The notes beneath the pieces are model-generated. The model worked only from the letters and a program-made list of their open reading frames with translations. It did not search any database and was not told the DNA's origin. The position numbers and the translations under genes are program-made. A stretch of DNA of 64,000 bases from Blastocatellia bacterium (GTDB lineage: Bacteria; Acidobacteriota; Blastocatellia; RBC074): NCBI GenBank assembly GCA_033763135.1, contig JANRKY010000047.1, positions 4,210 to 68,209 on the forward strand. The letters are read 5' to 3'. Below are positions 1,642-45,662 of this stretch, in pieces; the stretch's first letter is position 1, and each line of letters starts with the position of its first letter.

Positions 1642-1866
1642 CATTGAATAGCGATTCAATGTAAAGACCCGGCGGGACGACTGCAAAGAGGTAAGACAGG
1701 GGGCCATGCGGTTTCTGCCAATTGGGGGGCCGAGGTTCGAGTGAGGGCGCACTTGTTTTCGATCGATGGGGTTGCTGAGGCTGCGCGAAAAAAAATAAAG
1801 TAGTCAACGCAGTAATTTCAATACCGCATGAGCATTGAGCATGTGGAAGTGAATTGGCTCAGCTTA

Positions 1867-1922
1867 TATTTTCGCGTTGCCTGAGCGCCACACGGCCACA
1901 CCCGGTGAACGCATTGTTCGGT
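1867..1922 (+). repeat. attC right half (L' GGTGAAC, R' GTTCGGT)
   Basis: GCCACACCCGGTGAAC-GCATT-GTTCGGT is near-identical to 4165-4192. R' GTTCGG is complementary to R'' CCGAAC at the end of the following cassette. Confidence 0.7.
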
Positions 1923-1999
1923 GCTGACCTTATTGCCGCGCTAACGATCTTCAGCAAGCAAAGAGAAGGTACTGGACCGCTACATCAAGAGGATGAAAA

Positions 2000-4054
2000 A
2001 TGAAACACCTATCGTCTGTCACTTGCAAATTAGCTGCGCTGCTTGGCGCTGCATTGTTGCTATTCGCTCCCACTGCTTCAGCGCAGGCATCGGCCAAACG
2101 CTTTGACTTGGAGGTTGCGGCAAAAATTGTCAGACTAAGCGATCCACAAATCGCGCCGGATGGCAAATCAATTGTCGTCGTCGTCTCGCGCGCCAATTAC
2201 GAAGAAAATCGTTGGGAAGGCGAACTGACGCTGGTGGATGTCGCCACCAGCGCACAGCGCGTTTTGACCAGCGGGCGCTTTGACGTAACGCAGCCGCGCT
2301 GGTCGCCGACCGGAGATCGGCTGGCTTTTATTTCCAACGCGCCGACGGGCAGAGAAAACAAGCCACAACTTTTTGTTCTGGCGATGAATGGCGGCGAAGC
2401 CAAACGCATTACGAACGCTCCCAACGGCGTGCAACATTACGCTTGGAAGCCCGATGGGCTGGAGATTGCATTCGTTACAGCGGATGATTCGCCGAACAAG
2501 AAAATCGGTGACCGCGAAATTTCTTTTGAAGTCGGCAACGATCATTTCCTGACTAATGCGCAAGTTACATCGTCGCATATCTGGCTGACCAGCGCGAAAG
2601 GCGGCAAGGCGACGCGGCTCACGTCTGGCGAGTGGAGCTTGCCCATTACCTTGCCGCCTGGCTCGCTCTCGTCGCCGCTTTCGTGGTCCCCAGATGGCAG
2701 GACGATAGCATTCGTCAAACGTATCAGCCCGCATTTTGGTGATGCGCGCCTCAGTTCGATTCAATTGCTTGACGTAGCGACGGGAGCAATCCGCTCGTTG
2801 ACGGGGCGCAGCGAGCGCGAAAGCCAACCTGTCTTCTCGCCTGATGGTTCGCGCATTGCCTATTGGTATCCGCGCGAAGGACTGACCTCGAATAACAACG
2901 AGATACAGGTGACAACCGCTGCGGGCGGTGAAGGAGTCAATGCGACCAGGGCATTGGATCGTAACGTGTTTCGGTCAATCTGGATGCCGGACAGTAAATC
3001 ATTTATCACGGGCGGCAACGATGGCACACGCTTTACGATGTGGCAGCAACCACTGGAAGGCGCAGCGCGACGGATTGATTTAGGCGCTATCAATCCAGGC
3101 GGAAGCTTTTGGCTCGATGCCAGCGTCAGCAACGATGGAGGTCTTGCTTTAACGGGAAGCGAACCGCATCGTCCGACAGAGCTTTATTACTTGCCTTCGC
3201 TCACGTCAAAGCCGAAACGCCTTACCGATTTCAATCAACAATTTACCTCGCTTTCCCTTGGCAAAGTCGAAAAAATCGAATGGACAAATGACGAGTTCAA
3301 AATGGACGGCGTAATCACTTATCCGCCGGACTTTGCGCCGGGGCGAACCTATCCGCTGGTTTTGTATATTCATGGCGGGCCAGCCTCCGCTTCCAAGGAA
3401 GTCTTCAGTGAACGTGCGCAGCTACTGGCGGCGCGTGGCTGGGTGATCTTCGAGCCAAACTATCGCGGCAGCGATAATCTGGGGAGCAAGTTCATGCGGA
3501 GCATTTTCAACGACGCGGGCGCAGGCCCCGGACGGGATGTGATGGCAGGGCTAGAGGTATTGAAAAAACGCGGAATCGTTGATACGACGCGAATAGCGGT
3601 TTCCGGCTGGTCTTATGGCGGTTTTATGACAACGTGGTTGATTGGGCATTATCAGGGCTGGAGAGTTGCCATCGCCGGTGCTGCTGTGACCGATAACATG
3701 GATCAATATAACTTCGGTGACGCCAATGTCAGCCGCGCAGGTCAATTTGGCGGCTCGCCGTGGACGGGAGATTTCGAGAAGGCTTACCGCGAACAGTCGC
3801 CCATCACCAATGCGCCGCAGATCAAAACGCCGACGCTGATTTTGTCAGACACGGGGGATGTCCGCGTGCCGATCACGCAATCTTATAAGCTCTATCATGC
3901 GCTGCGCGACAACAATGTGCCAGTGCAATTCATTGCTTACCCGGTAGCCGGGCATTCTCCTACCGACCCTGTACGGCAGCAAGATGTTAGCAGGCGCTGG
4001 ATCGAATGGATTGAGAGGTATTTTGCGCAAACAACTACATCTGAAAACCGATGA
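2000..4054 (+). CDS. Secreted S9 family peptidase (dipeptidyl aminopeptidase/acylaminoacyl peptidase)
   Basis: Signal peptide, repeated WSPDG beta-propeller motifs, HGGP, NYRGS, GWSYGG, DVRVP and GH motifs. Confidence 0.92.
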   Translation: MKHLSSVTCKLAALLGAALLLFAPTASAQASAKRFDLEVAAKIVRLSDPQIAPDGKSIVVVVSRANYEENRWEGELTLVDVATSAQRVLTSGRFDVTQPRWSPTGDRLAFISNAPTGRENKPQLFVLAMNGGEAKRITNAPNGVQHYAWKPDGLEIAFVTADDSPNKKIGDREISFEVGNDHFLTNAQVTSSHIWLTSAKGGKATRLTSGEWSLPITLPPGSLSSPLSWSPDGRTIAFVKRISPHFGDARLSSIQLLDVATGAIRSLTGRSERESQPVFSPDGSRIAYWYPREGLTSNNNEIQVTTAAGGEGVNATRALDRNVFRSIWMPDSKSFITGGNDGTRFTMWQQPLEGAARRIDLGAINPGGSFWLDASVSNDGGLALTGSEPHRPTELYYLPSLTSKPKRLTDFNQQFTSLSLGKVEKIEWTNDEFKMDGVITYPPDFAPGRTYPLVLYIHGGPASASKEVFSERAQLLAARGWVIFEPNYRGSDNLGSKFMRSIFNDAGAGPGRDVMAGLEVLKKRGIVDTTRIAVSGWSYGGFMTTWLIGHYQGWRVAIAGAAVTDNMDQYNFGDANVSRAGQFGGSPWTGDFEKAYREQSPITNAPQIKTPTLILSDTGDVRVPITQSYKLYHALRDNNVPVQFIAYPVAGHSPTDPVRQQDVSRRWIEWIERYFAQTTTSENR

Positions 4055-4103
4055 GGGCGAGAGGATGGGAATGGGCGATGGGATATGCCAATGGCAAACC
4101 CAC

Positions 4104-4192
4104 CCCGAACTCGCATTGCGCCGGAGCGTGGCCGTTCGAGCGGTGCGTAATTTCGCGTTACACTGCCACGCCCGGTGAACGAATTGTCATGC
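4104..4192 (+). repeat. attC site, nearly complete
   Basis: R'' CCCGAAC, then CCGGAGCGTGGC...GCCACGCCCGG stem, L' GGTGAAC, 5-nt spacer, R' GTCATGC. Confidence 0.75.
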
Positions 4193-4267
4193 AGACAGAA
4201 TGGAGGCGCGCCTCTGGATGGATTCGCGACCTTCGGTTACCATCGCCCGCGATAAAGGAGGTTTCCG

Positions 4268-4729
4268 ATGACCAAAGTAACACCGTTTCTGATGTTCAAC
4301 GATCAGCTCGAGGCTGCCATGGAGTTCTACACCGCCACCTTCCCGGACTCCGAAATCAGGAACGTCGCCCGCACCGGCGAGGACGGTCCGATCAACTCTG
4401 CCGAATTCGTCGTCGGTGGTCAAGTCTTCATGGGCTACAACGGGGGGCCGCACTTTACGTTCTCCGAAGGCCTCTCGCTCTACGTTGACTGCGAGAACCA
4501 GGCCGAAGTCGACGAGTATTGGGACAAGCTGGTCGAGGCTGGGGCGACGCCTACCGCGTGCGGCTGGATCAAGGATCCGTTCGGCCTCTCCTGGCAGATT
4601 GTTCCGCGGCGATTCATGGAGCTGATCCGCGACAAGGATGCCAGGAGAGTAAAGGCCGTGATGGAGGCCATGATGACGATGGTGAAGCTCGACGTCGCGG
4701 CCCTTGAAAAGGCCTATAATGAGGCGTAA
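4268..4729 (+). CDS. VOC family protein (PhnB / 3-demethylubiquinone-9 3-methyltransferase-like)
   Basis: KVTPFLMF, NGGPHFTFSEGLSL, CGWIKDPFGLSWQIVP motifs; RBS AAGGAGG. Confidence 0.9.
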   Translation: MTKVTPFLMFNDQLEAAMEFYTATFPDSEIRNVARTGEDGPINSAEFVVGGQVFMGYNGGPHFTFSEGLSLYVDCENQAEVDEYWDKLVEAGATPTACGWIKDPFGLSWQIVPRRFMELIRDKDARRVKAVMEAMMTMVKLDVAALEKAYNEA

Positions 4730-4794
4730 GTGCGGCGCGCCCACACCCTGGGCGTTGAACGTGCTGCTTAAACGTACTAATTCGTCCGCTTTTC

Positions 4795-4868
4795 GTTCAA
4801 CCGGGGGCGCCGCCGTCTTCCAGGTCGGTCCATTGCGGGCGGCGCCTCGGTCAGCTCGTTCGCCAGGC
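4795..4868 (+). repeat. attC-family site (R'' eroded; R' GCCAGGC)
   Basis: GTTCAACCGGGGGCGCCGCC...GGCGGCGCCTCGGTCAGC-TCGTTC-GCCAGGC hairpin. Confidence 0.65.
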
Positions 4869-4926
4869 TGTCATGAAAACAAATGGGCAAGTAGCCCCGC
4901 GGTATAAGTCATAGGTAGACGAAAAG

Positions 4927-5493
4927 ATGGCAAACACTGATTCCCTTGTAACCATCCACATGGCAGCGAGCCTCGACGGCTTCATCGCTCGAACGGATGG
5001 GAGCGTCGACTGGATGGAGACCTCAGACGAATTCGTAAGCGGGGACACAATGGATCCTGAATTCGTTCAGGAGTTCCTCAAGACGATTGACTGCTATGTG
5101 ATGGGATCGCGAACCTATGAGACCGCCTTGAATTTTGAATCCGAGGGGTTGGGTTGGGCATATGGCGACAAAACCACGTTTGTCCTCACTCGTCGCGAGC
5201 TGCCGCGGAACCGGGATACAGTCGAGTTCTACTCCGGCGATCTCGCGGAATTGGTGAATGAGCGTCTGCGGCCAATGTTCCGAAGCATCTGGTTTGTTGG
5301 AGGCGGCATAGTTTCCGGCGAATGCTTGCGTCTCGGGCTCGCCGACGAGGTTCGTTATTCGATCCTGCCGGTCTTGATCGGTGAGGGGATTTCCTTTTTC
5401 GACAAGCTGGACAGAGACATCGCCCTGCATCTGGCCGAGGTCAAAGCCTACAAGAGCGGCATGGTGGCGCTTCGTTACGAAGTGCGACAATAA
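4927..5493 (+). CDS. Dihydrofolate reductase / RibD C-terminal domain family protein
   Basis: MAASLDGFIA, VMGSRTYE, WFVGGG, PVLIGEG motifs. Confidence 0.9.
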   Translation: MANTDSLVTIHMAASLDGFIARTDGSVDWMETSDEFVSGDTMDPEFVQEFLKTIDCYVMGSRTYETALNFESEGLGWAYGDKTTFVLTRRELPRNRDTVEFYSGDLAELVNERLRPMFRSIWFVGGGIVSGECLRLGLADEVRYSILPVLIGEGISFFDKLDRDIALHLAEVKAYKSGMVALRYEVRQ

Positions 5494-5509
5494 TGCCGGC
5501 TAAATCAGA

Positions 5510-5563
5510 TTCCAGGTCGATCCTTTGCGAGCGTCGGCGCCCCGGTCAACCCGTTCGTCAGGC
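5510..5563 (+). repeat. attC-family right segment (R' GTCAGGC)
   Basis: TTCCAGGTCGATCCTTTGCGAGCGTCGGCGCCCCGGTCAAC-CCGTTC-GTCAGGC; homologous to 4818-4868 and 11122-11175. Confidence 0.65.
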
Positions 5564-5573
5564 GGAAGATTGC

Positions 5574-5969
5574 ATGGAAATACGCTACTTAAACACAGAT
5601 TTAGAGATAGAATCTGAAAATGATATTTCTCGAATCGTTGAGGAATTTGGTGACGACGTGATGTTGCTGCATCATGGAGAAATTCGAGGATATATGCATG
5701 CATCATTTGAGACCGCAGGATTCAGAATAGGCGCCGACGAGGCTATCGAGACATTTTGTTCATTGGTCGAGAATTTTCCCGAAGAGGTTCGTGAAATCTG
5801 GGATAACTGTTGTACTCGTATTTTTGATATCGGGTATGAAAGCGGGCTATCTTCCACAAGTTTTCGATCAGAGATCAGAGAGTCGACAGTTCAGCGAATG
5901 GGAAAAATCAAGGCGAGTATCCGGATTACGATATACCCCGGCAGTAAAGAGGCGGGCGCTGGCGATTGA
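5574..5969 (+). CDS. Hypothetical cassette protein
   Basis: ATG immediately after the R' box; acidic 131-aa ORF. Confidence 0.7.
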   Translation: MEIRYLNTDLEIESENDISRIVEEFGDDVMLLHHGEIRGYMHASFETAGFRIGADEAIETFCSLVENFPEEVREIWDNCCTRIFDIGYESGLSSTSFRSEIRESTVQRMGKIKASIRITIYPGSKEAGAGD

Positions 5970-6121
5970 TAAATCGGGTACGGCGTCTTGCTGGCGGCTC
6001 AGTTTCGAACAATATTTTCGCTGTCTCTATCGGCGGACTACACCCATAAATGCTCGCGAGTCGCGTTATTTGTCAGACGGCGCGGATTCTGCGCGCGGGC
6101 GACCAGGCAAAGGAACCTCAT

Positions 6122-6550
6122 ATGAACGTGCTCAAACAAATCCAAGACTATATTGCAGTTCAACCAGAACCCAAACGAAGCGACATGCAGGAGTTGCATG
6201 ACATCATTCTGAGATTGACGCCAGGATGTAAATTATGGTTTCTGGACGGCAAGGACGAGAGAGGGCAAACGGTTTCTAATCCAAACATCGGTTATGGATC
6301 CCAGGCCATAACGTATGCTGATGGAAAAACCAGAGAGTTCTATCAGGTTGGCATTAGTGGAAACACAACAGGAATCTCAGTCTATATAATGGGGATAAAA
6401 GACAAGAAGTACTTGGCTGAGACCTATGCGAAAAAAATCGGCAAGGCCAGCGTAACGGGGTATTGCATCAAGTTCAGGACTCTAAGAAATGTAAACATTG
6501 ATATTCTTGAGGCCGCAATGCGATATGGGATTGAGCAGACAAGCGCCTGA
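6122..6550 (+). CDS. DUF1801 (YdhG-like) domain protein
   Basis: SNPNIGYG and GKASVTGYCIKF motifs; RBS AAGGA; stop TGA overlaps an R''-like GCCTGAT. Confidence 0.8.
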   Translation: MNVLKQIQDYIAVQPEPKRSDMQELHDIILRLTPGCKLWFLDGKDERGQTVSNPNIGYGSQAITYADGKTREFYQVGISGNTTGISVYIMGIKDKKYLAETYAKKIGKASVTGYCIKFRTLRNVNIDILEAAMRYGIEQTSA

Positions 6551-6618
6551 TTCACGTTTTACCAGGGGTTCGTTGACGATAAGAATCGTCTCAGGCTCGG
6601 TCAACTCGTTCGTCAGGC
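6545..6618 (+). repeat. attC-family site, short form (GCCTGAT...GTCAGGC)
   Basis: R''-like box overlaps the stop codon. Internal GACGATAAGAATCGTC hairpin, then GGTCAAC-TCGTTC-GTCAGGC. Confidence 0.72.
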
Positions 6619-6678
6619 AGCCCGGAGAGAGCATCGTCATGCGAATCGACCGTTTTGCGAGACGAGGAAGACCAGAAG

Positions 6679-7485
6679 ATGGCTGCATTCGCGAGATTTG
6701 AAAAACGCATAGCTGTGCTGACTGGCGGCGCGTCCGGCATCGGTCGTGAACTATTGCTTCAGTTGGTGCAGAGAGGTACGCATGTGGCAGCTTGCGACAT
6801 TGATCGTGACAGTCTGGAGACGGCAGTTCGACGGGCCCGCGCGAGCAATCCTGACGTACGCGTCACGGCACACGTGCATGACGTATCCGATGAGAAGTCG
6901 ATCGGTCGGTTCGTGAAAGAGGTCGCCAGAGAGCATGAGAGTGACGCGATCCACCTGCTGTTCAACAATGCCGGCGTGGTGGGTGGCGGGTCGTTCGTTA
7001 CAGGGCAGCGCGACGAGTGGGAGCGGACGTTTGCGGTATGCTGGTTCGGCACGTATTACTGCACCCGGGCATTTCTCCCGATGCTCATAGCTGCCGATCA
7101 AGGCGTTATCGTCAATACTTCCTCAGTGAGCGGCATGTGGGCGAGTTTAGGGGCGGGGTCACCGCACACGGCCTATTCATCGGCGAAGTTTGCGGTCCGG
7201 GGCTTCACGGAGTCGCTTCTCGTGGACCTCCGCGCGCACGCTCCCCATGTCTCTGCAGTGCTTGTCATGCCAGGGCATGTTCGCAGCGGGATGCCGGCTC
7301 CTCCCCGATCATGGCGGCGCGCGCTAAATTCACTGTTCGCCGACTATCAACCGGTGTCAAGCAGAGATGCCGCGAAAGCGATCCTCAACGCGGTAAGCAG
7401 CGGCGACTGGCGAGTCATCATCGGGCAAGACGCCGAGGCGGTCGATGTACGTGTCCGAGCAGAGCCGGGGACGATCTACGATTGA
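6679..7485 (+). CDS. SDR family oxidoreductase
   Basis: TGGASGIG, NNAG, YSSAK motifs. Confidence 0.92.
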   Translation: MAAFARFEKRIAVLTGGASGIGRELLLQLVQRGTHVAACDIDRDSLETAVRRARASNPDVRVTAHVHDVSDEKSIGRFVKEVAREHESDAIHLLFNNAGVVGGGSFVTGQRDEWERTFAVCWFGTYYCTRAFLPMLIAADQGVIVNTSSVSGMWASLGAGSPHTAYSSAKFAVRGFTESLLVDLRAHAPHVSAVLVMPGHVRSGMPAPPRSWRRALNSLFADYQPVSSRDAAKAILNAVSSGDWRVIIGQDAEAVDVRVRAEPGTIYD

Positions 7486-7614
7486 CTGGGGGCAGGAGTG
7501 GTTCGATCCGAATTTCTGAAATGTGATTTGAAAGTCAGGTCAAGGTCGCTTGACAGGAAGAGATTGAGAATGGCCGAGCCTCTTTAGCTACAGGGGCTCT
7601 TGCGCGCAGCGCTT

Positions 7615-7694
7615 CGTTCAGCTTACGTTCAGCTTACGTTCGACCAGCGTTTCGGTTCGGAAGGGCGGCACCCCGGTCAGCTCAGTCGCAAGGC
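7615..7694 (+). repeat. Degenerate attC-family site with 11-bp tandem duplication
   Basis: CGTTCAGCTTA x2, then GTTCGACCAGCGTTTCGGT...CCCCGGTCAGC-TCAGTC-GCAAGGC. Confidence 0.55.
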
Positions 7695-7716
7695 CATATT
7701 ACGAGAATCATACATT

Positions 7717-8484
7717 ATGGAATTACTACATCCCTGCCCCTGTTGCGGTTACAACACTCTGAATGCGCCATCTCCTGGATCGTGGCTCGTTTGCCAAGTT
7801 TGCTATTGGGAGGATGATTTGGCTCAGTTTGAAGATCCCAGACTTGTCAGCAGGGCAAATTCTCATTCGCTTCGTGTCGCTCAATACAATTTTGCAACAA
7901 TCGGAGCCTCTGATAAGCAATATCTCAACCGTGTAAGGAAGGTGGTTGAGGCGGATGTCCGCAACCCGGAATGGACGCCAGTCTATGAAATTGTGAGCAG
8001 AGAGGATGAATTGATAATTGATCTCGCAGACGCCGCATTTGCAGACGTTTCGCGACCGGAGCACTTTACAAACTATACACACTGTCAGGAGTGCTTCGAG
8101 CACGACGAAACAATGCGTAATGCCAAGCGGGGGGAGCTGGTGATCAATGAAAACTGGAGCCCTATCTGCTTTTTATCGTCACAGGGATTTCAGTATTTTA
8201 TGCCCGATTTTGTCCGTCTTGCTCTTCAGTCCAGTGAGGGGAATTTTTTAAGCACATTTACCACTTTTCACCTGCGATCTACTAATCGCAAGAACGAGCT
8301 CCCGGAATGTCGTCCACGGCAGACAACGCTGTTCACGCATGAGCAAACGGAAGTCACTTTGCGATTTCTTGAATATGTCGAGCAAACGCGATGGATTGAG
8401 CTTGAATATGATATGGAAAAGCTGGAGCAGGTAATTCGCGACTGGCGTAAATCGCTTGCTTCAGCTGGTGATTCACCTGCCTGA
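7717..8484 (+). CDS. CPCC cysteine-rich domain protein with unknown C-terminal domain
   Basis: PCPCCGY...CQVCYWEDD...AN..SL..AQYNF signature; HCQEC in the second domain. Confidence 0.8.
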   Translation: MELLHPCPCCGYNTLNAPSPGSWLVCQVCYWEDDLAQFEDPRLVSRANSHSLRVAQYNFATIGASDKQYLNRVRKVVEADVRNPEWTPVYEIVSREDELIIDLADAAFADVSRPEHFTNYTHCQECFEHDETMRNAKRGELVINENWSPICFLSSQGFQYFMPDFVRLALQSSEGNFLSTFTTFHLRSTNRKNELPECRPRQTTLFTHEQTEVTLRFLEYVEQTRWIELEYDMEKLEQVIRDWRKSLASAGDSPA

Positions 8485-8512
8485 TAGTTCATGTGTCTCA
8501 AAAGGAGGTATT

Positions 8513-8878
8513 GTGGTAGAAACCTACGGCCTAACACATATCAGTCTTGCTGTTCGCGATATAGATCGGTCTTTGCAGTTTTACCAGCAAGTTTTTGGCG
8601 TCAGGGAATATTATAGAGATGAAAATTCAATACAAGTAATCAGCCCGCGGGGCCACGATGTCATCGCTTTTGAATATGACCCAGTAAATGCAGGTGAGTC
8701 TAAGGGCATAAATCACTTTGGGTTTCGGCTGATAAACAGTGCGGACATTGATAAGGCCGTTGAAGAGGTGGAACGGGCTGGTGGGACGGTAATAAAGAAA
8801 GGAGAATTCGCGCCAGGATGCCCATTTGCATATATACACGACCCGGATGGTTATATGATTGAAATCTGGTATGAGTGA
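8513..8878 (+). CDS. VOC/glyoxalase family protein
   Basis: LTHISLAV, INHFGF, DPDGYMIE motifs; RBS AAGGAGG before GTG. Confidence 0.88.
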   Translation: MVETYGLTHISLAVRDIDRSLQFYQQVFGVREYYRDENSIQVISPRGHDVIAFEYDPVNAGESKGINHFGFRLINSADIDKAVEEVERAGGTVIKKGEFAPGCPFAYIHDPDGYMIEIWYE

Positions 8879-9036
8879 ATTCTTTGACGCGCGAGCTTGG
8901 GTCGGTTCGCGGGTCTTCGCTGGCGATGGGGAGATTGAGTGTGACGCCTTGCCGATGCGCTCAGTTACGATCAATCTTTGCGCTGTGTCCATCGGAGAGC
9001 TTCACGCGTAAGCGATCGCGAGTCATGGTATTTTTC

Positions 9037-9190
9037 GCCCAACCGCTCATTTGACTGGAGTTTCGGTGACGATAAGAATCGTCTCAAACCAGGCTGGAGC
9101 AGCGCCGCTGTAAGTCCCTTTTTAAATTGGCACGGCCTGGCTCTGTTCCTTGAGAGGCGCCGCCGATTTGATCCATGTCAACTTGAGCTG
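9037..9190 (+). repeat. Longest attC-family copy (canonical R'' GCCCAAC; right end eroded)
   Basis: Contains left and middle segments of the family. TCTCAA/TTGAGA and CCAGGCTG/CGGCCTGG inner stems; TTGAC/GTCAA L boxes. Confidence 0.7.
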
Positions 9191-9213
9191 CTCACTCGAA
9201 AATGCAGTGATCT

Positions 9214-9594
9214 ATGAACGTAATTAATGTTTCAAATCTCAATGGTTCTGAGTTTGACAAGATAGAGTCAGTGATATCGAGCCATAATCAACTGCTTGAT
9301 GTTCTCAATTGCGTTGAGATAGAGAAAGAGAAGCGGCTGAGCCCAGAAATCGTGACTCAAGATGAGTATACGCACGACATTGTGGTTGAATGGAAAGAGC
9401 CCATATATCTGGTATACGATACGAATTGACTGGGAGCGATTGCGGCGGTCGCCGTCTGGGATCATAAGCCAACAGAAGAAGAGCTATTGAACGCGAGAGT
9501 GGAACGTGGATGGTTGCCGACAGAGTCACGCGTTAAAGAAGGCGAAGCCGTATTGGGCTATGCCTGCCGCATCGGCGTCAATCATCGAAAGTAA
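9214..9594 (+). CDS. Putative selenoprotein of unknown family (in-frame TGA at 9427-9429)
   Basis: Frame stays open for 54 sense codons after the TGA (YDTN-U-LGAIAAVAVWDHKP...) to TAA 9592-9594. SECIS-like stem GCGGC-GGTC-GCCGT with the loop at +18..+21. Confidence 0.65.
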
Positions 9595-9666
9595 GCATTG
9601 AGCAGGATCGACTTTCCTTCTTTTGAAGAGAGGCAGGCGAAAAAGATCGCAACGCACTGTATTTTC

Positions 9667-9720
9667 GCCTAACCGCCCGTTTGACTGAGCCCCCTTCGCT
9701 TCCAGATCGATCCTTTTGGA
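9667..9720 (+). repeat. attC-family left end (R'' GCCTAAC)
   Basis: TATTTTCGCCTAACCGCCCGTTTGACTG matches 9029-9057; followed by a TTCCAGATCGATCC piece of the right segment. Confidence 0.6.
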
Positions 9721-9804
9721 GGGGAGCGAGTTAGGGATCGAGTGCTCTAACGGTTGCACTGATTCTTGGTGAAAACACTTCAAAGAAAAGATGAGAGAGA
9801 GGCC

Positions 9805-10212
9805 ATGCTGCGAATCATCTTGGGCGTGATTGCCGGATTTTTTGGCTGGGTGATAGGTTGGTTTGGAAGCGAGAAGGCTCTTTCGGCCATTTGGCCGGAG
9901 TGGTTCGGCGTTCAACAACGCGCGTTCCAGGCGGCCATTGAGAATGACGGTCAGTTCGCGCCCGATACGAGGTTTCTTCTCACGCAGATTCTCTGCGCTG
10001 CAATCGTTTCGGTGATGTCAGGATTTCTGGCGGCGCTGGTCGCCGGCGAAGCGCAGCGCGCGCCTCTGATTCTCGGCATTCTGCTACTGGCATTGGGCTT
10101 AATGAAGGCGGTTCTGTCCTGGAGGCATGTTCCTGTTTGGTATCATATTCTCTTCACGGCGATTCTGGTTTTAATGACGATTATGGGCGGCAAATTGAAA
10201 ACGACAGCTTAG
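9805..10212 (+). CDS. Hypothetical 4-TM membrane protein
   Basis: Four hydrophobic segments and a PVWYH motif; RBS GAGG. Confidence 0.75.
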   Translation: MLRIILGVIAGFFGWVIGWFGSEKALSAIWPEWFGVQQRAFQAAIENDGQFAPDTRFLLTQILCAAIVSVMSGFLAALVAGEAQRAPLILGILLLALGLMKAVLSWRHVPVWYHILFTAILVLMTIMGGKLKTTA

Positions 10213-10304
10213 TCGGGATCGAGAGGGGATATGCTTCGGAGAATTGACTCAAAACGAACTGTCAATCGATTTTGGGATGACCAAGTTGGGAAAAAGCGAA
10301 ACAG

Positions 10305-11063
10305 ATGAAAATCGTCATAACTGCCTTATTGATAATTGCAGCCTCCATCACGAATTTAAACTGCGGTTCTCGAAAACAAGTCGCATTCGTTCCCAGGGAG
10401 GCGTACAAGACCAGCACGTTAATTGTGACCCAAATTGCCGGAAATTCCTTCAAGCATACCTCATTCAAGCAGACCAATGATTTTGGATATGTTCCATGCA
10501 ACGGGCTCATTGTGAGAAATGGCAATGAAGCAATTGTTTTCGACACGCCAACCAACGACAAGAGCTCAGGAGAATTGATCAAGTGGATAAAGGAGGAGCT
10601 CCATTGCAGGATAAATGCAGTTATTCCAACCCATTTTCACGACGATTGTCTGGGAGGGTTAACGGCGTTTGATGAGGATGGCATTCCTTCGTATGCGAAT
10701 TTCAGGACGATCGAGCTTGCGAGGGAGAACGGATTGGGCGTTCCCGGGAACAGCTTCAGGGATTCGCTTGTGCTGAAAGTGGGCGATGAGGAGGTTGTTG
10801 CGAAGTTTTTCGGAGAAGGACACACAAAGGATAATATCGTGGGATATTTCCCAAGTGAAGGCGTGATGTTCGGAGGTTGTCTGATAAAAGAGCTGAATGC
10901 AGGCAAGGGGTATTTGGGCGACGCCAATGTTGCGGATTGGTCCGCGACAGTTGAGCGAGTTAAGAAAGAGTATCCAGAGGTGGAAATTATTGTCCCAGGG
11001 CACGGAGAGCATGGGGACCAGAAGATACTTGATTATACGATTAACCTGTTCAAGGCTCAGTAG
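10305..11063 (+). CDS. bla: Subclass B1 metallo-beta-lactamase
   Basis: HFHDD (H116/H118/D120), GHTKDN (H196), GGCLIK (C221), PGHG (H263); upstream NGLIV and FDTP motifs; signal peptide ending LNC. Confidence 0.9.
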   Translation: MKIVITALLIIAASITNLNCGSRKQVAFVPREAYKTSTLIVTQIAGNSFKHTSFKQTNDFGYVPCNGLIVRNGNEAIVFDTPTNDKSSGELIKWIKEELHCRINAVIPTHFHDDCLGGLTAFDEDGIPSYANFRTIELARENGLGVPGNSFRDSLVLKVGDEEVVAKFFGEGHTKDNIVGYFPSEGVMFGGCLIKELNAGKGYLGDANVADWSATVERVKKEYPEVEIIVPGHGEHGDQKILDYTINLFKAQ

Positions 11064-11071
11064 GCGGGGAT

Positions 11072-11175
11072 CCGTTAAAGCCAGTGCGGCTCGGCGTTGT
11101 TTCTTGAGAGGCGCCGCAGTCTTCCAGGCCGATCCCATGCGGCCGGCGGCGTCCCGATGAATTCATTCGTCAGGC
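11072..11175 (+). repeat. attC-family middle and right segments (R' GTCAGGC)
   Basis: TTTCTTGAGAGGCGCCGCAGTCTTCCAGGCCGATCC...GATGAAT-TCATTC-GTCAGGC. Confidence 0.65.
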
Positions 11176-11220
11176 TCCCTTATGTTTCCGCCAATGCGGA
11201 GGCCTTCGGAGAAATGCGAT

Positions 11221-11925
11221 ATGGAGGAGATTAAACAGCGATACCTTTCGCTCCTGCCAGACCTGCCGCGATGGGTGGAGACGCGGGATCTGCTGTTGTG
11301 GGAGGGGTCCGTCGTGCTTGAGAACTCGAGTCGGAGCGGCTTCATCGTGTGGAGTGAAGAAGACGCTCTGGGGGCGGTGGTCGGCGAGCCGGATCCCGTG
11401 GTCCTTGCTCGCGCGGCGAAGGATGTATCCGAGCTGCTTGCCTTCTCCGAAAACATTATGCAGGTGAGGTCTCTTCTCCCGGGCTTCCTGGCAGAGTCTG
11501 CCACGATCTATTCCGCACCAGCGCAACTGCCGTCGTCACCAGCTCATATCTGCCGAAAGATCGGTCAACGCGAGATTTCGTCGTTGCGGCACCTGTCTGC
11601 TGATTTGTTGGAGGAGCTGTCGGACGCGGCGGAGGACGGGAGAGCGGTTGTGGCCGCCCTTGATGGGGGGCTGCCGGTATCTTTTGCCTATGTTGCGTCG
11701 GAAACGGAGACGCTGTGGGATGTATCGATCGATACGATCGAAAGCCATCGTCGCCAGGGGTACGCGGCGGCGGCCGTCCTTTATCTTATGCGTCTTATGA
11801 GAAGGAAGCGGAAAGCTGCTGTATGGGGAGCGCTGGAAAGCAATCATGCATCATCGAATCTGGCACGACGCCTGGGGTTTACCGAAAACGACAAACTATG
11901 GGTTCTGACTTCAAGCGGCGCCTGA
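11221..11925 (+). CDS. GNAT family N-acetyltransferase
   Basis: HRRQGYA acetyl-CoA motif and NHASSNLARRLGF. Start could be 11182. Confidence 0.85.
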   Translation: MEEIKQRYLSLLPDLPRWVETRDLLLWEGSVVLENSSRSGFIVWSEEDALGAVVGEPDPVVLARAAKDVSELLAFSENIMQVRSLLPGFLAESATIYSAPAQLPSSPAHICRKIGQREISSLRHLSADLLEELSDAAEDGRAVVAALDGGLPVSFAYVASETETLWDVSIDTIESHRRQGYAAAAVLYLMRLMRRKRKAAVWGALESNHASSNLARRLGFTENDKLWVLTSSGA

Positions 11926-12006
11926 CGCATGTTTTAGAGGACGCGCCGCCGTCTTCGAGGGAAACCCATTCGGGCGGCGGCGGCCTGGTCGCCTCATTCG
12001 TCAGGC
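11920..12006 (+). repeat. attC-family site with complementary non-canonical core GCCTGAC...GTCAGGC
   Basis: R'' overlaps the TGA stop; GCCGCCG...CGGCGGC stem; TCATTC-GTCAGGC. Confidence 0.72.
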
Positions 12007-12030
12007 TCAATGAAACCGCGGAGGATGAAA

Positions 12031-12546
12031 ATGATGGTGATCAATTACAGGGGCAAGAAATCCCGTCTTTATTTGAAGGGGGCATTATATTTGATGATTG
12101 CGGCGTTATGCCTTGTTTCGCTGATCAGCAGCGAGCTGAACAGCGCTTTTGCGAACGACAAATATAAATGTCCGCCTGGTCGTAGCCGGGTGAAGATGGA
12201 AGAGGAGTTGCGAGATAGCCTTCGCACGCTTCGCCGATCGATAGATTCATACAAACTTGCCTGTGAACAGGGATTGATCGGCCCGATAGATCGGAAAGTC
12301 GACGACATGTGCTATCCGCCTGATTTGCAAGTGTTGGTGACGGGGATCCAGCCACCCAACGGCAAATACCGAATCCGGTTTCTTCGGCGCATTCCTGTGG
12401 ATCCCATAACAGGGAAGCGTGAATGGGGATTACGGTCAATACAGGATGATCCCCGGGCGAGCGTCTGGGGGGGAGAAAATGTATTTGACGTGTACAGCAA
12501 GAGCAATAAACGAGGCCTTGATAAAATAGCTTATAGCGAGTGGTGA
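12031..12546 (+). CDS. Type II secretion pseudopilin (GspG-like) domain protein lacking the prepilin N-methylation motif
   Basis: ELRDSLRTLRRSIDSYK, YPPDLQVLV, FLRRIPVDP, DVYSKS motifs. Start uncertain. Confidence 0.7.
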   Translation: MMVINYRGKKSRLYLKGALYLMIAALCLVSLISSELNSAFANDKYKCPPGRSRVKMEEELRDSLRTLRRSIDSYKLACEQGLIGPIDRKVDDMCYPPDLQVLVTGIQPPNGKYRIRFLRRIPVDPITGKREWGLRSIQDDPRASVWGGENVFDVYSKSNKRGLDKIAYSEW

Positions 12547-12568
12547 GCGGGAGTCGTTATAAGCAGGG

Positions 12569-12675
12569 AGCTGACTTTGCGTTCGACCGGAGTTCAGATG
12601 ACGATAGAAATCGTCTCAAGGAGGGGGGAGAAGCGCCGTAAAGTCCGTGTGGCTCGGCGCAGTTTCTTCAGGGAG
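12569..12675 (+). repeat. attC-family left and middle segments (R'' AGCTGAC)
   Basis: AGCTGAC-TTTGC-GTTCGACCGGAGTT...GACGATAGAAATCGTCTCAA...GCGCCGTAAAGTCC...GGCTCGGCGCAGTTTCTT. Confidence 0.62.
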
Positions 12676-12687
12676 GGGAGAAGATTG

Positions 12688-13182
12688 ATGAATTCCGTTG
12701 AGTACAGCATTCGGCCGGCGGGCGAAGAAGACCAGTTGTTTCTTTGGGAGATGCTTTATCACGCGATTTACGTGCCGGATGGGCAGGCGCCGATCCCGAG
12801 AGAGATTGTGAACCAGCCGGAGATTGCAAAGTATGTCGATCGGTGGGGAAGGGGAGAGGATCATGGCGTGGTGGCGATCGAGAATCTGACTTTGGAGCCC
12901 GTAGGGGCGGCATGGCTCAGGATTTTTCCGGTGGAGAAGAAGGGATATGGTCACGTTCGCGAAGGTATTCCGGAGCTTTCGATTGCGATATTGCCTGGGT
13001 ATCGAAATCAGGGGATCGGGTCCGCATTGCTCCGGCGATTGATTGGCGATGCGAGAGGGCGATTTTCGGCGATATCATTGAGCGTCTCGCGTGAGAATCC
13101 GGCGGTTCGGCTGTATGAGCGCTTTGGATTTGAGGCGGTCGATCAGAGCGGTTCGTCGATCACGATGCTGAAGGAGCTTTGA
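12688..13182 (+). CDS. GNAT family N-acetyltransferase
   Basis: PELSIAILPGYRNQGIG and NPAVRLYERFGF motifs. Confidence 0.9.
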   Translation: MNSVEYSIRPAGEEDQLFLWEMLYHAIYVPDGQAPIPREIVNQPEIAKYVDRWGRGEDHGVVAIENLTLEPVGAAWLRIFPVEKKGYGHVREGIPELSIAILPGYRNQGIGSALLRRLIGDARGRFSAISLSVSRENPAVRLYERFGFEAVDQSGSSITMLKEL

Positions 13183-14540: not shown

Positions 14541-14587
14541 GCCGCATTCGGGCCTTGATCATCGCTTCGGCCAGTGCGCCTTGAAGA

Positions 14588-14679
14588 ATCGACAGGATGG
14601 ACAGGATTTTTCAGGACGAACAGGATTCTCTGTTCACAATCATCCTGTAAATCCTGAAAATCCTGTTCATCCTGTCGAT
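14588..14679. repeat. CAGGAT-based tandem-repeat palindrome
   Basis: GACAGGATGGACAGGATTTTTCAGGAC...ATCCTGAAAATCCTGTTCATCCTGTC; second copy at 61104-61191. Confidence 0.8.
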
Positions 14680-14808
14680 ACCCGTCACTCAGGATCGGCT
14701 GGTTCCGAAGCAGCGAGCGACCGTGGCCGAAACGACGCTCAAGGCCGCGGGCGTGTCGCTGGCTTCGGCCAATGCCGACCGTATTTTTAACGATCGGATA
14801 TCCTTTTT

Positions 14809-21468: not shown

Positions 21469-21650
21469 CGAAAATCAGGGCGGGGGGCGATTCTGTCGCC
21501 CAACCCATTGAAAACACAAAAGCCTCAGGCGCATTGGGTGAAATTGCGCGTCTGAGGCTCAGAGTTGTCCCTGATTCGTCAAGGCGGAGTTCGACCGCCA
21601 TTGAAGACCACGCCGCGCTCTTTCATCCGAAGAGGGGTCGAAATTTTTCT

Positions 21651-21850
21651 TCAGGCAGGTCTCCTGACTCGGCATTCAATCAACGCGGCCTTCTCGCTCC
21701 GGAGGTCGGCGCAATGGCGCAGAGGTGCGTTGATCTTCGTTCCGGCGGACTGGCCGGACGTCATTGCCTTACAGTGGCGGTGACCGTGCGGGATTTACAC
21801 CCGCTTCCCTATTCTCCCGGCGCGTGTTGGCGACCGGGCACCCGAAGATT
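21651..21850 (-). promoter_or_regulatory. Cobalamin riboswitch
   Basis: Minus strand reads GGTGC...AATAGGGAAGCGGGTGTAAATCCCGCACGGTCACCGCCACTGT...GAGTCAGGAGACCTGCC (B12 box), directly upstream of btuF. Confidence 0.93.
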
Positions 21851-22184
21851 ATGAAAAGAACATTCTTGCTTGCCTACTTGCTTGCCTTCTTGCTTGATCG
21901 ACATCGAAAGCGGAACGTATCACGCCTTTCCGCGGGGCGTCAATGCTGAATGAAATGGGGGTGGAATGAAATATAACTTGAGCCGGCGACCGGAAACGGT
22001 GTAAACATGAGCCGTCCCGGAAGGCGCCCTTACTCCGCCGCCGCCAATCGGTCCCCAAAAAAATGTGTAATATGCGAGGGCGATATCTCACTAAAGGATT
22101 GAACATCGAGAGGACTCCCTCCAGGAAAATCGATCGCGAAAATAGATTGCACTGATTCAATATCAAGAATAGGAAAAAAAATCT

Positions 22185-45312: not shown

Positions 45313-45662
45313 GGATGGGGAGCGAAAAAGAAGGGGTGTGCAAGGGCAACCGCTTGGCCGTAAACGGGGCTTCATTTGAACCTGTCTGTAACAGGTGGGT
45401 GACCTTGAAAAGCCCTGCGGCGTAAGAGATTCGCGCGTTGGCGATCGTGCTTGCCGACAGGAAGCATCGGCCTCCCGATCAAACGAATTGGCTCAAATAG
45501 AAGTGCCGCCGCCTACTAACGTCGCAGTCGCCCTGCAACGATCGGTATGCTAGCCGAGGGGGTAGACCCGGTCAATACCCTTAATCAAAATCTTTTCCGC
45601 GCGTCGGAAGAGGCGACCGCTTGACCGGCTCTGGTGGGTTGGTTATCCTTTCTTCTTTTTCG
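45313..45662 (+). ncRNA. Candidate structured non-coding RNA, family not recognised
   Basis: TACAAT -10 box at 45301; 11-bp terminal helix 45323-45333/45652-45662; nested helices and a possible pseudoknot; no ORF. Confidence 0.55.

What the first reader, a model, noticed from the sequence alone, without database searches (positions are those of the whole stretch)
4104..12575. Cassette array whose attC-like sites repeatedly use a GTC/GAC core instead of the canonical GTT/AAC
Seen: right ends read L'-spacer-GTCAGGC at 5557, 6612, 11169 and 12000, GTCATGC at 4186, GCCAGGC at 4862, and possibly GTCAGAC at 6072. Left ends read GCCTGAC (11920), AGCTGAC (12569) and GCCTGAT (6545, 8479), often with a TGA rather than TAA stop inside R''. 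The GNAT cassette is bounded by G|TCAGGC and GCCTGAC, a perfectly complementary compensated R box. Established: attC recombination by IntI depends on the AAC/GTT triplet of the R box. Inference: either an integron whose integrase tolerates or prefers a GTC crossover, or systematic inactivation that locks cassettes in place. Canonical copies also exist (1916, 4104, 9037, 9667), so GC-biased decay is not excluded.
Basis: partly seen in the sequence, partly recalled or inferred. Interest (0 to 1): 0.8.

Follow-up and report, generated by a model that had tools for sequence, protein, structure and literature searches.

The report
Eroded distal integron array, GTC-rich sites
This is the old, decaying far end of a chromosomal integron's gene-cassette array, where most recombination sites carry one recurrent base change (GTT to GTC) that probably helps freeze the cassettes in place and does not reflect a new integrase specificity.

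Summary
Every motif sits at the stated coordinate, and GTC in place of GTT is far too frequent for chance: 8 of 13 recognisable right-end boxes outside the integrase contig, against 4 of 230 attC matches in relatives (Fisher p=2e-9).

The reading "integrase prefers GTC" is not supported. The genome's only integron integrase lies on another contig (C90). Its presumed attI and three cassettes are fully canonical (GTT/AAC), and the active-site lysine that reads this base pair is conserved.

The window's array (contig C47) is cut off from C90 by an insertion sequence. It runs from canonical sites into GTC/GCC/GCA sites and ends in a half site near 12680. Most GTC sites are structurally broken. Only 11920-12006 folds as a proper, compensated attC.

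An orthologous cassette in a relative still has TTAGGC/GCCTAAC where this genome has TCATGC/GCTTAAA.

Published IntI1 data show GTC x GTC recombination falls 150-fold, while one GTC partner is tolerated.

Best reading: relaxed constraint, plus survival of poorly excisable cassettes. Rare intact, compensated GAC/GTC sites in relatives show the variant can also be a tolerated allele.

The parts
1840..1922 (+). attC of a second subtype (L' GGTGAAC, 5-nt spacer). R' is GTTCGGT at 1916-1922. The left arm is poorly paired.
   Evidence: Sequence; coordinates; bottom-strand DNA fold z +0.21.
1917..4186 (+). Cassette with an S9 peptidase ORF (2000-4054). Its start TTCGGT matches its own R'' CCCGAAC at 5 of 6 positions, a canonical AA/TT pairing.
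   Evidence: Pfam Peptidase_S9 5.4e-44; sequence.
4104..4192 (+). attC with R'' CCCGAAC and R' GTCATGC at 4186. The L stem is kept; the R box is unpaired in situ.
   Evidence: fold z -0.34; model score 14.3 bits.
4187..4862 (+). Cassette with a VOC/PhnB-like ORF (4268-4729). Its start is TCATGC and its own R'' remnant is GCTTAAA at 4766-4772. The orthologue in G012 has TTAGGC and GCCTAAC.
   Evidence: Pfam PF06983 4.2e-40; pairwise alignment at about 92% identity.
4783..4868 (+). Chimeric attC body without a proper R''. R' is GCCAGGC at 4862. A contig of run X3 carries a canonical R'' plus spacer in front of the same body.
   Evidence: 69.6 bits, but this site was one of the model's seeds; fold of 4756-4868 z -1.88; loose end at 4794.
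4863..5557 (+). Cassette with a RibD_C-like ORF (4927-5493). Its start is CCAGGC.
   Evidence: Pfam RibD_C 3.1e-14. In 9 relatives the homology stops at the ORF ends.
5515..5563 (+). Right half of an attC whose left arm is deleted. R' is GTCAGGC at 5557.
   Evidence: 15.9 bits; fold z +1.29.
5558..6078 (+). Cassette-like unit: an ORF (5574-5969) with no family match, ending in an R'-like GTCAGAC at 6072 with no recognisable attC.
   Evidence: No Pfam or NCBIfam match; fold z +0.66; no model match.
6073..6612 (+). DUF1801-like cassette (ORF 6122-6550). Its TGA stop lies inside R'' GCCTGAT.
   Evidence: Pfam DUF1801 6.2e-05, below the Pfam cut-off. Orthologous cassettes carry R'' GAC in 3 relatives and AAC in 2.
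6545..6618 (+). Short attC with R'' GCCTGAT and R' GTCAGGC. The R box pairs in situ; the L pairing is weak.
   Evidence: 29.6 bits; fold z -2.24.
6613..7688 (+). SDR cassette (ORF 6655-7485). Its start is TCAGGC and its own R'' is AGCTTAC, which does not match.
   Evidence: Pfam adh_short 2.3e-40; alignment to G003.
7627..7694 (+). attC with a deleted left stem and an 11-nt tandem duplication. R' is GCAAGGC at 7688.
   Evidence: 19.9 bits; fold z +0.86.
7695..8485 (+). CPCC/DUF6714 cassette (ORF 7717-8484). An R''-like GCCTGAT at 8479 is followed by no attC.
   Evidence: Pfam; sequence.
9037..9200 (+). attC left end (R'' GCCCAAC) carrying the roughly 100-nt inserted module. The right stem and R' are missing.
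   Evidence: nhmmer match at C47:13250-13385; sequence.
9667..9736 (+). attC left half (R'' GCCTAAC). The right half and the first ~45 nt of the next cassette are deleted.
   Evidence: 12 bits; comparison with relatives' membrane-protein cassettes.
10305..11063 (+). Subclass B1 metallo-beta-lactamase-like ORF just upstream of the attC at 11089.
   Evidence: NF033088 266.6 bits, cut-off 200.
11089..11175 (+). attC with a degenerate R''/L''. R' is GTCAGGC at 11169.
   Evidence: 43.3 bits; fold z +0.27.
11170..12000 (+). GNAT cassette (ORF 11182-11925). Its start TCAGGC pairs perfectly with its own R'' GCCTGAC, and its TGA stop lies in R''. The stretch 11077-11996 is absent from one contig of run X2.
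   Evidence: Pfam GNAT families; joint 11076>11997.
11920..12006 (+). The one structurally intact GAC/GTC attC in the window.
   Evidence: 67 bits, but a seed of the model; canonical fold at -25.3 kcal/mol, z -3.88.
12001..12680 (+). Last cassette (ORF 12010-12546). Its start is TCAGGC. It ends in a half attC (R'' AGCTGAC at 12569, L'' and the module, but no L'-R'). This is the end of the array.
   Evidence: Sequence; nhmmer match at C47:16786-16880; no model match beyond this point.

Best explanation
The window holds the distal, old part of a chromosomal integron cassette array. Its integrase and presumed attI lie on another contig (C90), and an insertion sequence sits between the two contigs. 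In this part the attC sites are no longer kept intact. They have lost arms, been fused or collapsed, and their R boxes have drifted.

One change dominates: the third base pair of the conserved triplet (R' GTT to GTC, R'' AAC to GAC). I infer three reasons.
- It is a transition that keeps the hairpin paired, through a G.T intermediate or full compensation.
- It keeps a stop codon (TAA to TGA) where the ORF ends inside R''.
- By analogy with IntI1, a cassette flanked by two GTC sites is excised far less often. Such cassettes therefore outlast their neighbours and accumulate (survivorship or locking).

Shown here: the gradient along the array, the erosion, the position-specific enrichment, canonical proximal sites, and a conserved integrase. 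Inferred: that GTC lowers excision by this particular integrase, and that this is what causes the enrichment.
For: Integrase and proximal sites:
- One integron integrase in the genome, at C90:36586-37527 (TIGR02249 467.6 bits, cut-off 265).
- Three cassettes to its right have R'' (A/G)CCTAAC and R' GTTAGG(C/T). Each cassette's start is exactly complementary to its own R''.

State of the sites:
- Model scores are 96-102 bits for the C90 sites, against 12-69.6 bits for the window sites.
- Bottom-strand fold z-scores are -5.3, -7.5 and -6.1 for C90. Only 11920-12006 (z -3.9) is comparable. Five of the seven GTC-bearing stretches in the window have z above -0.4.
- Along the array the order is six GTT sites and one collapsed GCC site, then GTC/GCC/GCA (Mann-Whitney p=8e-4 for 15 sites; p=0.018 within C47 alone).
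- R' base 3 is changed in 7 of 9 sites against a mean of 0.135 for other columns.

Comparison with relatives:
- Relatives have GTT in 206 of 216 matches and AAC in 206 of 216.
- The orthologous VOC cassette is TTAGGC/GCCTAAC in G012 and TTGGGC/GCCCAAC in G006, but TCATGC/GCTTAAA here.
- In G028 contig C290, three canonical sites are followed by four sites with GTC, GAC or other defects.

Other support:
- Strain variants in public runs arise by attC-internal deletion or rearrangement. None of the joints listed lies at G|TC.
- An IS end at C47:1-~119 is repeated at 100% identity on C96.
- IntI1 data: GTC x GTC recombination is down 150-fold and there is no in vitro cleavage of T3>C3 (PMC2811028, sections 15 and 18 read).
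Against: - With IntI1, a single GTC site recombines at wild-type level with a GTT partner, so GTC alone does not lock a cassette (PMC2811028).
- The site at 11920-12006 is intact and perfectly compensated. Relatives also hold intact compensated sites: G032 L126:768-858 (ACCTGAC/GTCAGGT, 58.6 bits), the G032 VOC cassette, and G028 L053:4380-4466. This looks like maintained structure, not decay.
- Start-to-own-R'' compensation is too sparse to test. Among C-start cassettes, 3 are matched and 2 unmatched (hand table).
- G006 has 60 sites and no integrase was found in it (16000 bases withheld), yet it stays 95% canonical. Absence of a nearby integrase does not by itself produce GTC.
- Physical linkage of C47 to C90 rests on a synteny hint only.
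- The behaviour of this integrase on GTC sites is untested.
Confidence: 0.6

Rival explanations
1. GTC/GAC is a tolerated, still active attC allele. These cassettes remain mobilisable by the resident integrase whenever the partner site is GTT. On this reading the run of GTC sites here is history (drift or hitch-hiking), not a locking effect.
For: - IntI1 recombines attC-GTC with wild-type attI at wild-type level (PMC2811028, section 15).
- Compensated, well-folding GAC/GTC sites exist here (11920-12006) and in G032 and G028.
- The DUF1801 cassette family carries R'' GAC in 4 of 6 cassette copies from four genomes, in different contexts.
- In G032 the VOC cassette has TCAGGC at its start, GCCTGAC as its R'' and GTCAGGC after it. 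The near-identical attC in G101 is GCCTAAC/GTTAGGC.
Against: - Most GTC sites in the window lack a foldable attC.
- The variant stays at about 2% in 230 sites of relatives, so it is not neutral in active arrays.
- No joint at G|TC appears among the joints listed for 4 laid runs.
- The G000 VOC cassette is uncompensated and derived.
Confidence: 0.25
2. Pure neutral, GC-biased mutational decay of an inactive array, with no selection or survivorship acting on the triplet.
For: The array is clearly decaying: deletions, chimeras and collapsed sites. T>C and A>G are AT-to-GC transitions.
Against: - R' base 2 is an equally placed T, yet it changed in 2 of 9 sites against 7 of 9 for base 3.
- The other 19 columns change at a mean rate of 0.135 (p=2e-5).
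Confidence: 0.1
3. The integron's integrase, or a lost second one, has an altered specificity and prefers a GTC crossover.
For: The high share of GTC in this array (8 of 13). Two further lone sites on C93 and C386 are also GAC/GTC.
Against: - The presumed attI and the 3 of 3 proximal cassettes are GTT.
- The genome holds only one integron integrase. It has the conserved QGKG lysine and the catalytic R, HxxR, H and Y residues aligned to VchIntIA.
- attC bodies on C47 belong to the same family as those on C90.
- Orthologous cassettes elsewhere are GTT.
- None of the 16 metagenome matches or the 2 genome-collection GTC matches to the GTC right-end pattern is an attC.
Confidence: 0.04

Closest known systems
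Sedentary chromosomal integrons and CALIN elements (clusters of attC sites lacking a nearby integrase), as defined in Cury et al. 2016 (PMC4889954; passages read with 'find')
   Same: An array of same-strand, mostly single-ORF cassettes separated by attC sites of one sequence family. The array is separated from intI, here by an IS and a contig break. That paper names genome rearrangement and IS elements as routes to CALIN, and names 'genetic degradation of integron cassettes'.
   Different: Here the degradation has a strong position-specific signature (T3>C in R', A>G in R''). I did not find that signature described. In the passages I read, the paper says only that the conserved triplet is the most conserved part of attC.
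Engineered attC/attI1 triplet mutants tested with IntI1 (Frumerie et al. 2010, PMC2811028; abstract and sections 15 and 18 read)
   Same: Exactly the same change, G1T2T3 to GTC. It is tolerated in one partner, falls 150-fold when both partners carry it, and gives no detectable in vitro cleavage.
   Different: Those are laboratory mutants of class 1 and Vibrio sites. [quoted passage not shown] Here the change is natural, recurrent, sometimes compensated in R'', and found in a distant phylum's integron.
Degenerate chromosomal integrons such as those of Xanthomonas (Gillings et al. 2005). Seen only as an entry in the reference list of PMC4889954; its content is recalled, not read.
   Same: A chromosomal array that has become largely static.
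   Different: As recalled, in Xanthomonas the integrase itself is often inactivated. Here the integrase ORF is intact and the proximal cassettes look active.

Membership tests
Integron (intI + attI + cassette array) | An integron-type tyrosine recombinase with the IntI-specific insertion and catalytic residues | tested here: met
   C90:36586-37527, 325 aa. TIGR02249 scores 468 bits against a cut-off of 265. Full-length alignment to VchIntIA 2a3v at E 1.2e-85, with R, K (QGKG), HxxR, H and Y conserved. The gene is not on the window's contig.
Integron (intI + attI + cassette array) | An attI next to intI with a G|TT crossover | tested here: inconclusive
   By sequence only. G|TTAGGT lies near C90:38200, and the first cassette's own R'' ACCTAAC is complementary to it. 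There is no functional test. A 134-aa ORF lies between intI and this point.
Integron (intI + attI + cassette array) | attC sites: R''-L''...L'-R' imperfect palindromes whose bottom strand folds with extrahelical bases | tested here: met
   Met for the 3 C90 sites and for window 11920-12006 (folds; structure used for model R1). Not met for most other window sites (z above -2.3).
Integron (intI + attI + cassette array) | The conserved triplet AAC in R'' and GTT in R' | tested here: not met
   Met in 3 of 3 C90 sites. Outside C90, R' is GTT in only 3 of 13 sites: 8 are GTC, 1 is GCC and 1 is GCA.
Integron (intI + attI + cassette array) | The array is physically contiguous with intI/attI | tested here: inconclusive
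   The two lie on different contigs. C47 begins with an IS end repeated on C96. In G003 contig C219, homologues of C90:18.7-19.9 kb and of C47:20.5 kb lie about 5 kb apart. Cassettes are on the + strand of both contigs.
CALIN (cluster of attC sites lacking integrase) | Two or more attC sites close together with no intI nearby on the same sequence | tested here: met
   No IntI match on C47 among 13 matches in the genome. Model or nhmmer matches number 8-10 on C47. This holds only operationally, because the contig breaks at an IS.
Recombination-competent attC (for the GTC sites) | Recombined by the cognate integrase | not testable with these tools
   Only indirect evidence: published IntI1 data (PMC2811028), and no G|TC joint among the joints listed for 4 laid runs.

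The most novel reading that the evidence does not exclude
GTT>GTC (with AAC>GAC) is a naturally selected 'low-excision allele' of attC. On this reading it is a one-base switch, kept paired by compensation. It lets a chromosomal integron convert mobile cassettes into fixed genes while leaving them capturable by a GTT partner. Its accumulation toward the distal end would then be the visible trace of that process, the first natural counterpart of the laboratory GTC mutants.
Probability: 0.25. Interest if true: 0.6.

Novelty: new member of a known kind. Interest (0 to 1): 0.33.

Why it matters
How chromosomal integrons balance cassette shuffling against keeping useful cassettes is an open question. 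This array is a natural case in which the triplet change shown in the laboratory to cripple recombination between two mutant sites is the commonest change in an old array.

That pattern suggests a simple route to cassette fixation. It also gives concrete sites for testing: GTT and GTC versions of the same attC family, beside an intact cognate integrase.

There is a practical caution too. attC finders and primers that insist on GTT/AAC will miss such sites. One of the frozen cassettes encodes a subclass B1 metallo-beta-lactamase-like protein.

Tried and rejected
Steps that led nowhere:
- Loose regex scans for the L'/spacer motif over the genome were too noisy: 105200 hits and 2147 hits. I replaced them with nhmmer and a covariance model.
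- Rfam holds nothing for these sites. The only two matches in the window are a cobalamin riboswitch and 6S RNA.
- An exact-pattern scan of genome contigs gave 4 loci: 2 GTT attCs and 2 GTC matches inside coding sequence.
- A scan of metagenome contigs with the GTC right-end pattern gave 16 loci. Only 2 of the 16 had any model match (29 and 28 bits), and on reading the flanks I judged all 16 to be coding sequence.
- Family-wide pattern counts were dominated by chance and coding matches: 58 GTC hits and 29 GTT hits in 87 genomes. Of 28 relatives' loci checked, 1 held attCs. The other 25 relatives' matches were not checked.
- The RibD-like gene's homologues in 9 relatives share only the ORF, so they say nothing about cassette boundaries.
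- The 24-aa ORF fragment at the start of C47 has no Pfam match. That it is a transposase start is recalled resemblance only. The repeat on C96 and C29 is the tool evidence for an IS.
- Compensation between a cassette's start and its own R'' could not be tested statistically. For T-start cassettes, 3 of 3 have A. For C-start cassettes, 3 have G, 1 has A and 1 has T.
- Parts of the array without contig cover in the laid runs are not interpreted.
- Supplements of papers were not consulted. Supplementary tables of PMC4889954 and PMC2811028 may list natural triplet variants that I could not see.
- Only unrelated papers turned up for 'attC + GTTRRRY + GTC'. This does not show that natural GTC sites are unpublished.

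Unpublished genome: G005 enters only the tally of integrase-bearing relatives.

Full report
OBSERVATION. The motifs occupy the R' and R'' positions of attC-like sites. These sites are built as L' (GGTCAAC-like), a 6-nt spacer, then R'. That is the same build as three textbook sites elsewhere in the genome. The ORF at 11182-11922 is a GNAT. Its cassette starts with TCAGGC after the G at 11169, and it carries its own R'' GCCTGAC with the TGA stop inside it.

THE LOCUS. The window is C47:4210-68209 of a 7.99-Mb, 393-contig genome. The genome has one integron integrase, at C90:36586-37527 on the minus strand (TIGR02249 467.6 bits, cut-off 265). To its right lie a 134-aa ORF, a presumed attI ending G|TTAGGT, and three cassettes. 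Their attC sites read (A/G)CCTAAC ... GGTCAAC tcgttc GTTAGG(C/T). C90 then ends. In each of these three cassettes, the six bases after G| are the exact complement of the cassette's own R'', including the variable outer base. That is the signature of real G|TT crossovers.

C47 begins with about 119 nt that recur at 100% identity at the start of C96 and at 83% in C29. This is an insertion-sequence end sitting inside an attC. From C47:120 to window ~12680, same-strand cassettes follow. The last site is a half attC (R''-L'' but no L'-R'), and no model match lies beyond it.

Synteny with same-genus genomes starts only at window ~16.2 kb. In G003, homologues of C90:18.7-19.9 kb and C47:20.5 kb lie about 5 kb apart on one contig. 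C90 and C47 are therefore probably neighbours, and the window would hold the distal part of the same integron. This linkage is inferred, not shown.

A record titled as a Blastocatellia bacterium holds a near-identical canonical attC. That suggests an acidobacterial host.

STATE OF THE SITES. I built a covariance model (R1) from three C90 sites, the C386 site and two window sites. It finds matches in this genome only on C90, C47, C93 and C386 (13 matches, one of them a reverse-strand duplicate). nhmmer agrees.

Scores are as follows:
- C90 sites: 96.6-102.4 bits.
- Window 4783-4868: 69.6 bits (a seed of the model; R' is GCC).
- Window 11920-12006: 67 bits (a seed).
- Other window sites: 43.3, 29.6, 19.9, 15.9, 14.3 and 12 bits.

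Folded as bottom-strand DNA, the C90 sites give the canonical R/L hairpin with bulged bases (z -5.3, -7.5, -6.1). In the window, only 11920-12006 does the same (z -3.9). Site 6545-6618 is marginal (z -2.2). Sites 4104-4192, 5490-5563, 5985-6078, 7631-7694 and 11089-11175 are no better than shuffles.

Comparison with relatives and reading of the sequence shows how the sites broke:
- Left arms are deleted at 5515-5563 and 7627-7694.
- A right half plus ~45 nt of the next cassette is deleted at 9667-9736.
- The body at 4783-4868 is a chimera. The true R'' remnant of the VOC cassette is GCTTAAA at 4766-4772.
- A collapsed site consisting of R'', 5 nt and R' lies at C47:772-793.

ENRICHMENT. Outside C90, 13 R' boxes are recognisable (11 on C47, plus C93 and C386). 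Of these, 8 are GTC, 1 is GCC, 1 is GCA and 3 are GTT.

In relatives I examined 216 non-overlapping model matches (E up to 0.01) in 10 genomes. GTT occurred in 206, and GTC in 3, one of which is a misaligned truncated match. AAC occurred in 206 and GAC in 3. Fourteen more matches in further loci added GTC twice and GAC twice.

Statistics (all):
- Fisher's exact test, 8 of 13 against 4 of 230: p=2e-9.
- Within nine ungapped right halves, R' base 3 is changed in 7 of 9, base 2 in 2 of 9, and the other columns at a mean rate of 0.135: binomial p=2e-5.
- Along the array, GTT sites come first: Mann-Whitney p=8e-4 over 15 sites, and p=0.018 within C47.

Caveats. Relatives are kin, and G057 alone gives 95 of the 216 sites. 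Loci were chosen either by model matches or by homology to this array's cassettes. The model's seeds contain both GTT and GTC.

ORTHOLOGOUS CASSETTES. The VOC cassette (window 4187-4862) is about 92% identical to one in G012. There it starts TTAGGC and ends with R'' GCCTAAC. In G006 the pair is TTGGGC/GCCCAAC, a clean compensated pair. Here it is TCATGC/GCTTAAA, which is derived and uncompensated.

The DUF1801-like cassette has its stop codon inside R''. Its copies read GCCTGAT (here), GCCTGAC (G098), ACCTGAC (G105, with start TTAGGT, a G.T state), ATCTGAC (G003), ACCTAAC (G104) and GCCTAAC (G017). The AAC/GAC difference is thus also a TAA/TGA stop difference, and it recurs.

In G032 the VOC cassette has G|TCAGGC at its start, GCCTGAC as its R'' and GTCAGGC after it. 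The near-identical attC in G101 is GCCTAAC/GTTAGGC. G032 also has an intact site reading ACCTGAC ... GTCAGGT (58.6 bits). In G028 contig C290, three canonical sites are followed by GCCTAAA/GTCAGGC, GCCTGAC/GTCAGGT, ACCTAAC/GTTAGGC and GCCTGAC/ATTAGGC. That gives one matched, one A.C and one G.T cassette.

So the variant exists at low frequency in the family, sometimes compensated and intact.

OTHER STRAINS. Twenty public runs from 13 studies hold 10-30% of the sampled words of window 4100-12700. Contigs of four of these runs were laid. Pieces with 0-2 differences span the sites at 5557, 6072 and 11169, so these states are shared across samples.

- One contig of run X2 joins 11076 to 11997 with two extra letters. 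It lacks the attC at 11089, the GNAT cassette and most of the attC at 11920. This is not the product expected of a G|TC crossover.
- One contig of run X4 joins 9685 to 7656 through 31 letters that complete a canonical attC. The cassette order therefore differs, with the shared segment starting inside the attC and not at the R' box.
- A loose end in run X3 at 4794 supplies a canonical R'' and spacer in front of the 4783-4868 body.
- None of the joints listed lies at G|TC. Contigs drop rare variants, so this is weak evidence.

THE INTEGRASE AND THE LITERATURE. The integrase aligns over its full length with VchIntIA (2a3v, E 1.2e-85). The QGKG lysine and the catalytic R, HxxR, H and Y residues are conserved.

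Frumerie et al. 2010 (PMC2811028; abstract and sections 15 and 18 read) report the following for IntI1:
- attC-GTC x attI1-wt recombines at wild-type level.
- GTC x GTC falls 150-fold.
- T3>C3 gives no detectable in vitro cleavage.
- K171 (K160 in VchIntIA) contacts T3 and A2'.

That paper also states that all integrons characterised then shared the triplet. Cury et al. 2016 (PMC4889954; passages read) describe CALIN elements, IS-mediated splitting and cassette degradation.

INTERPRETATION. The reading 'prefers GTC' fails on the canonical presumed attI and proximal cassettes, on the conserved integrase, and on the ~95% GTT in relatives. Plain GC-biased decay fails on position specificity.

The best fit is relaxed constraint in an old distal array, combined with survivorship. 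Cassettes flanked by two poorly cleaved GTC sites are the ones that stay. The transition is favoured because it passes through G.T, can be compensated, and keeps a stop codon.

The intact compensated sites here, in G032 and in G028 keep open a second reading: that GTC/GAC is a tolerated, still-capturable allele. The two readings overlap.

Confidence: 0.6 for erosion plus locking, 0.25 for the tolerated active allele, 0.1 for neutral decay, 0.04 for altered specificity.

LIMITS.
- No functional test was possible.
- The C90-C47 linkage is inferred.
- The hand-curated site table rests on my reading of eroded sequence.
- The count of 13 excludes the collapsed site at C47:787. Including it gives 8 of 14.

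Noticed in passing
window 10305-11063 (+): This cassette ORF meets NCBIfam's subclass B1 metallo-beta-lactamase equivalog (NF033088, 266.6 bits, cut-off 200). It is closest to the CHM family (418.8 bits, below that family's 475 cut-off). It shares about 73% nucleotide identity with G017:C6. It sits in the eroded part of the array with no attC between it and the upstream membrane-protein ORF.
   Followed up: partly
L009:1715-2116 (= C90:37714-38115), between intI and the presumed attI: A 134-aa ORF runs divergent from intI. It has no Pfam or NCBIfam match. tblastx matches (50-68% identity over 46-119 aa) lie beside intI in many relatives' loci. This looks like a conserved integron-platform gene in this lineage. 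Its 3' end overlaps short direct repeats upstream of G|TTAGGT (seen by eye).
   Followed up: partly
window 9041-9176 and 12577-12671; L010:3860-4041 and L010:123-279: A roughly 100-nt module sits inside the L'' arm of some attC sites. It has its own small hairpins. There are four to five copies on C47 and only partial matches in G006 and G003. It could be a branched variable region or a small inserted element; this is undecided.
   Followed up: partly
L010:1-119 (C47 start, left of the window): The contig starts with an element end that is 100% identical to the start of C96 and 83% identical to C29. The two contigs diverge right after it, inside an attC. A 24-aa minus-strand ORF start there has no Pfam match.
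   Followed up: partly
L010:772-793 (C47, left of the window): A collapsed attC: a canonical R'' that matches its cassette's start, then 5 nt, then GCCAGGC. The whole L''-L' hairpin is missing.
   Followed up: no
window 14545-14747: A ~200-nt repeat made of short direct and inverted sub-repeats. It has more than 40 matches at 78-92% identity in same-genus genome G002 and none reported in G001 or G003.
   Followed up: no
window 11076/11997 and 9685/7656: Strain variants appear in public runs. A contig of X2 lacks 11077-11996, with 2 extra letters at the join. A contig of X4 joins 9685 back to 7656 through 31 letters that complete a canonical attC, so the cassette order differs.
   Followed up: partly
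G000 C386:19832-19924 (-) and C93:41397-41476 (-): Two lone attC sites lie far from any array. Both have R'' GCCCGAC and R' GTCAGGC or GTCAGCC. The C386 site follows a low-GC gene. The C93 site has lost its L' box.
   Followed up: partly
window 21637-21860 (-) and 45343-45533 (-): A cobalamin riboswitch (101 bits) and 6S RNA (46.8 bits, just over the gathering score). Neither is related to the finding.
   Followed up: no
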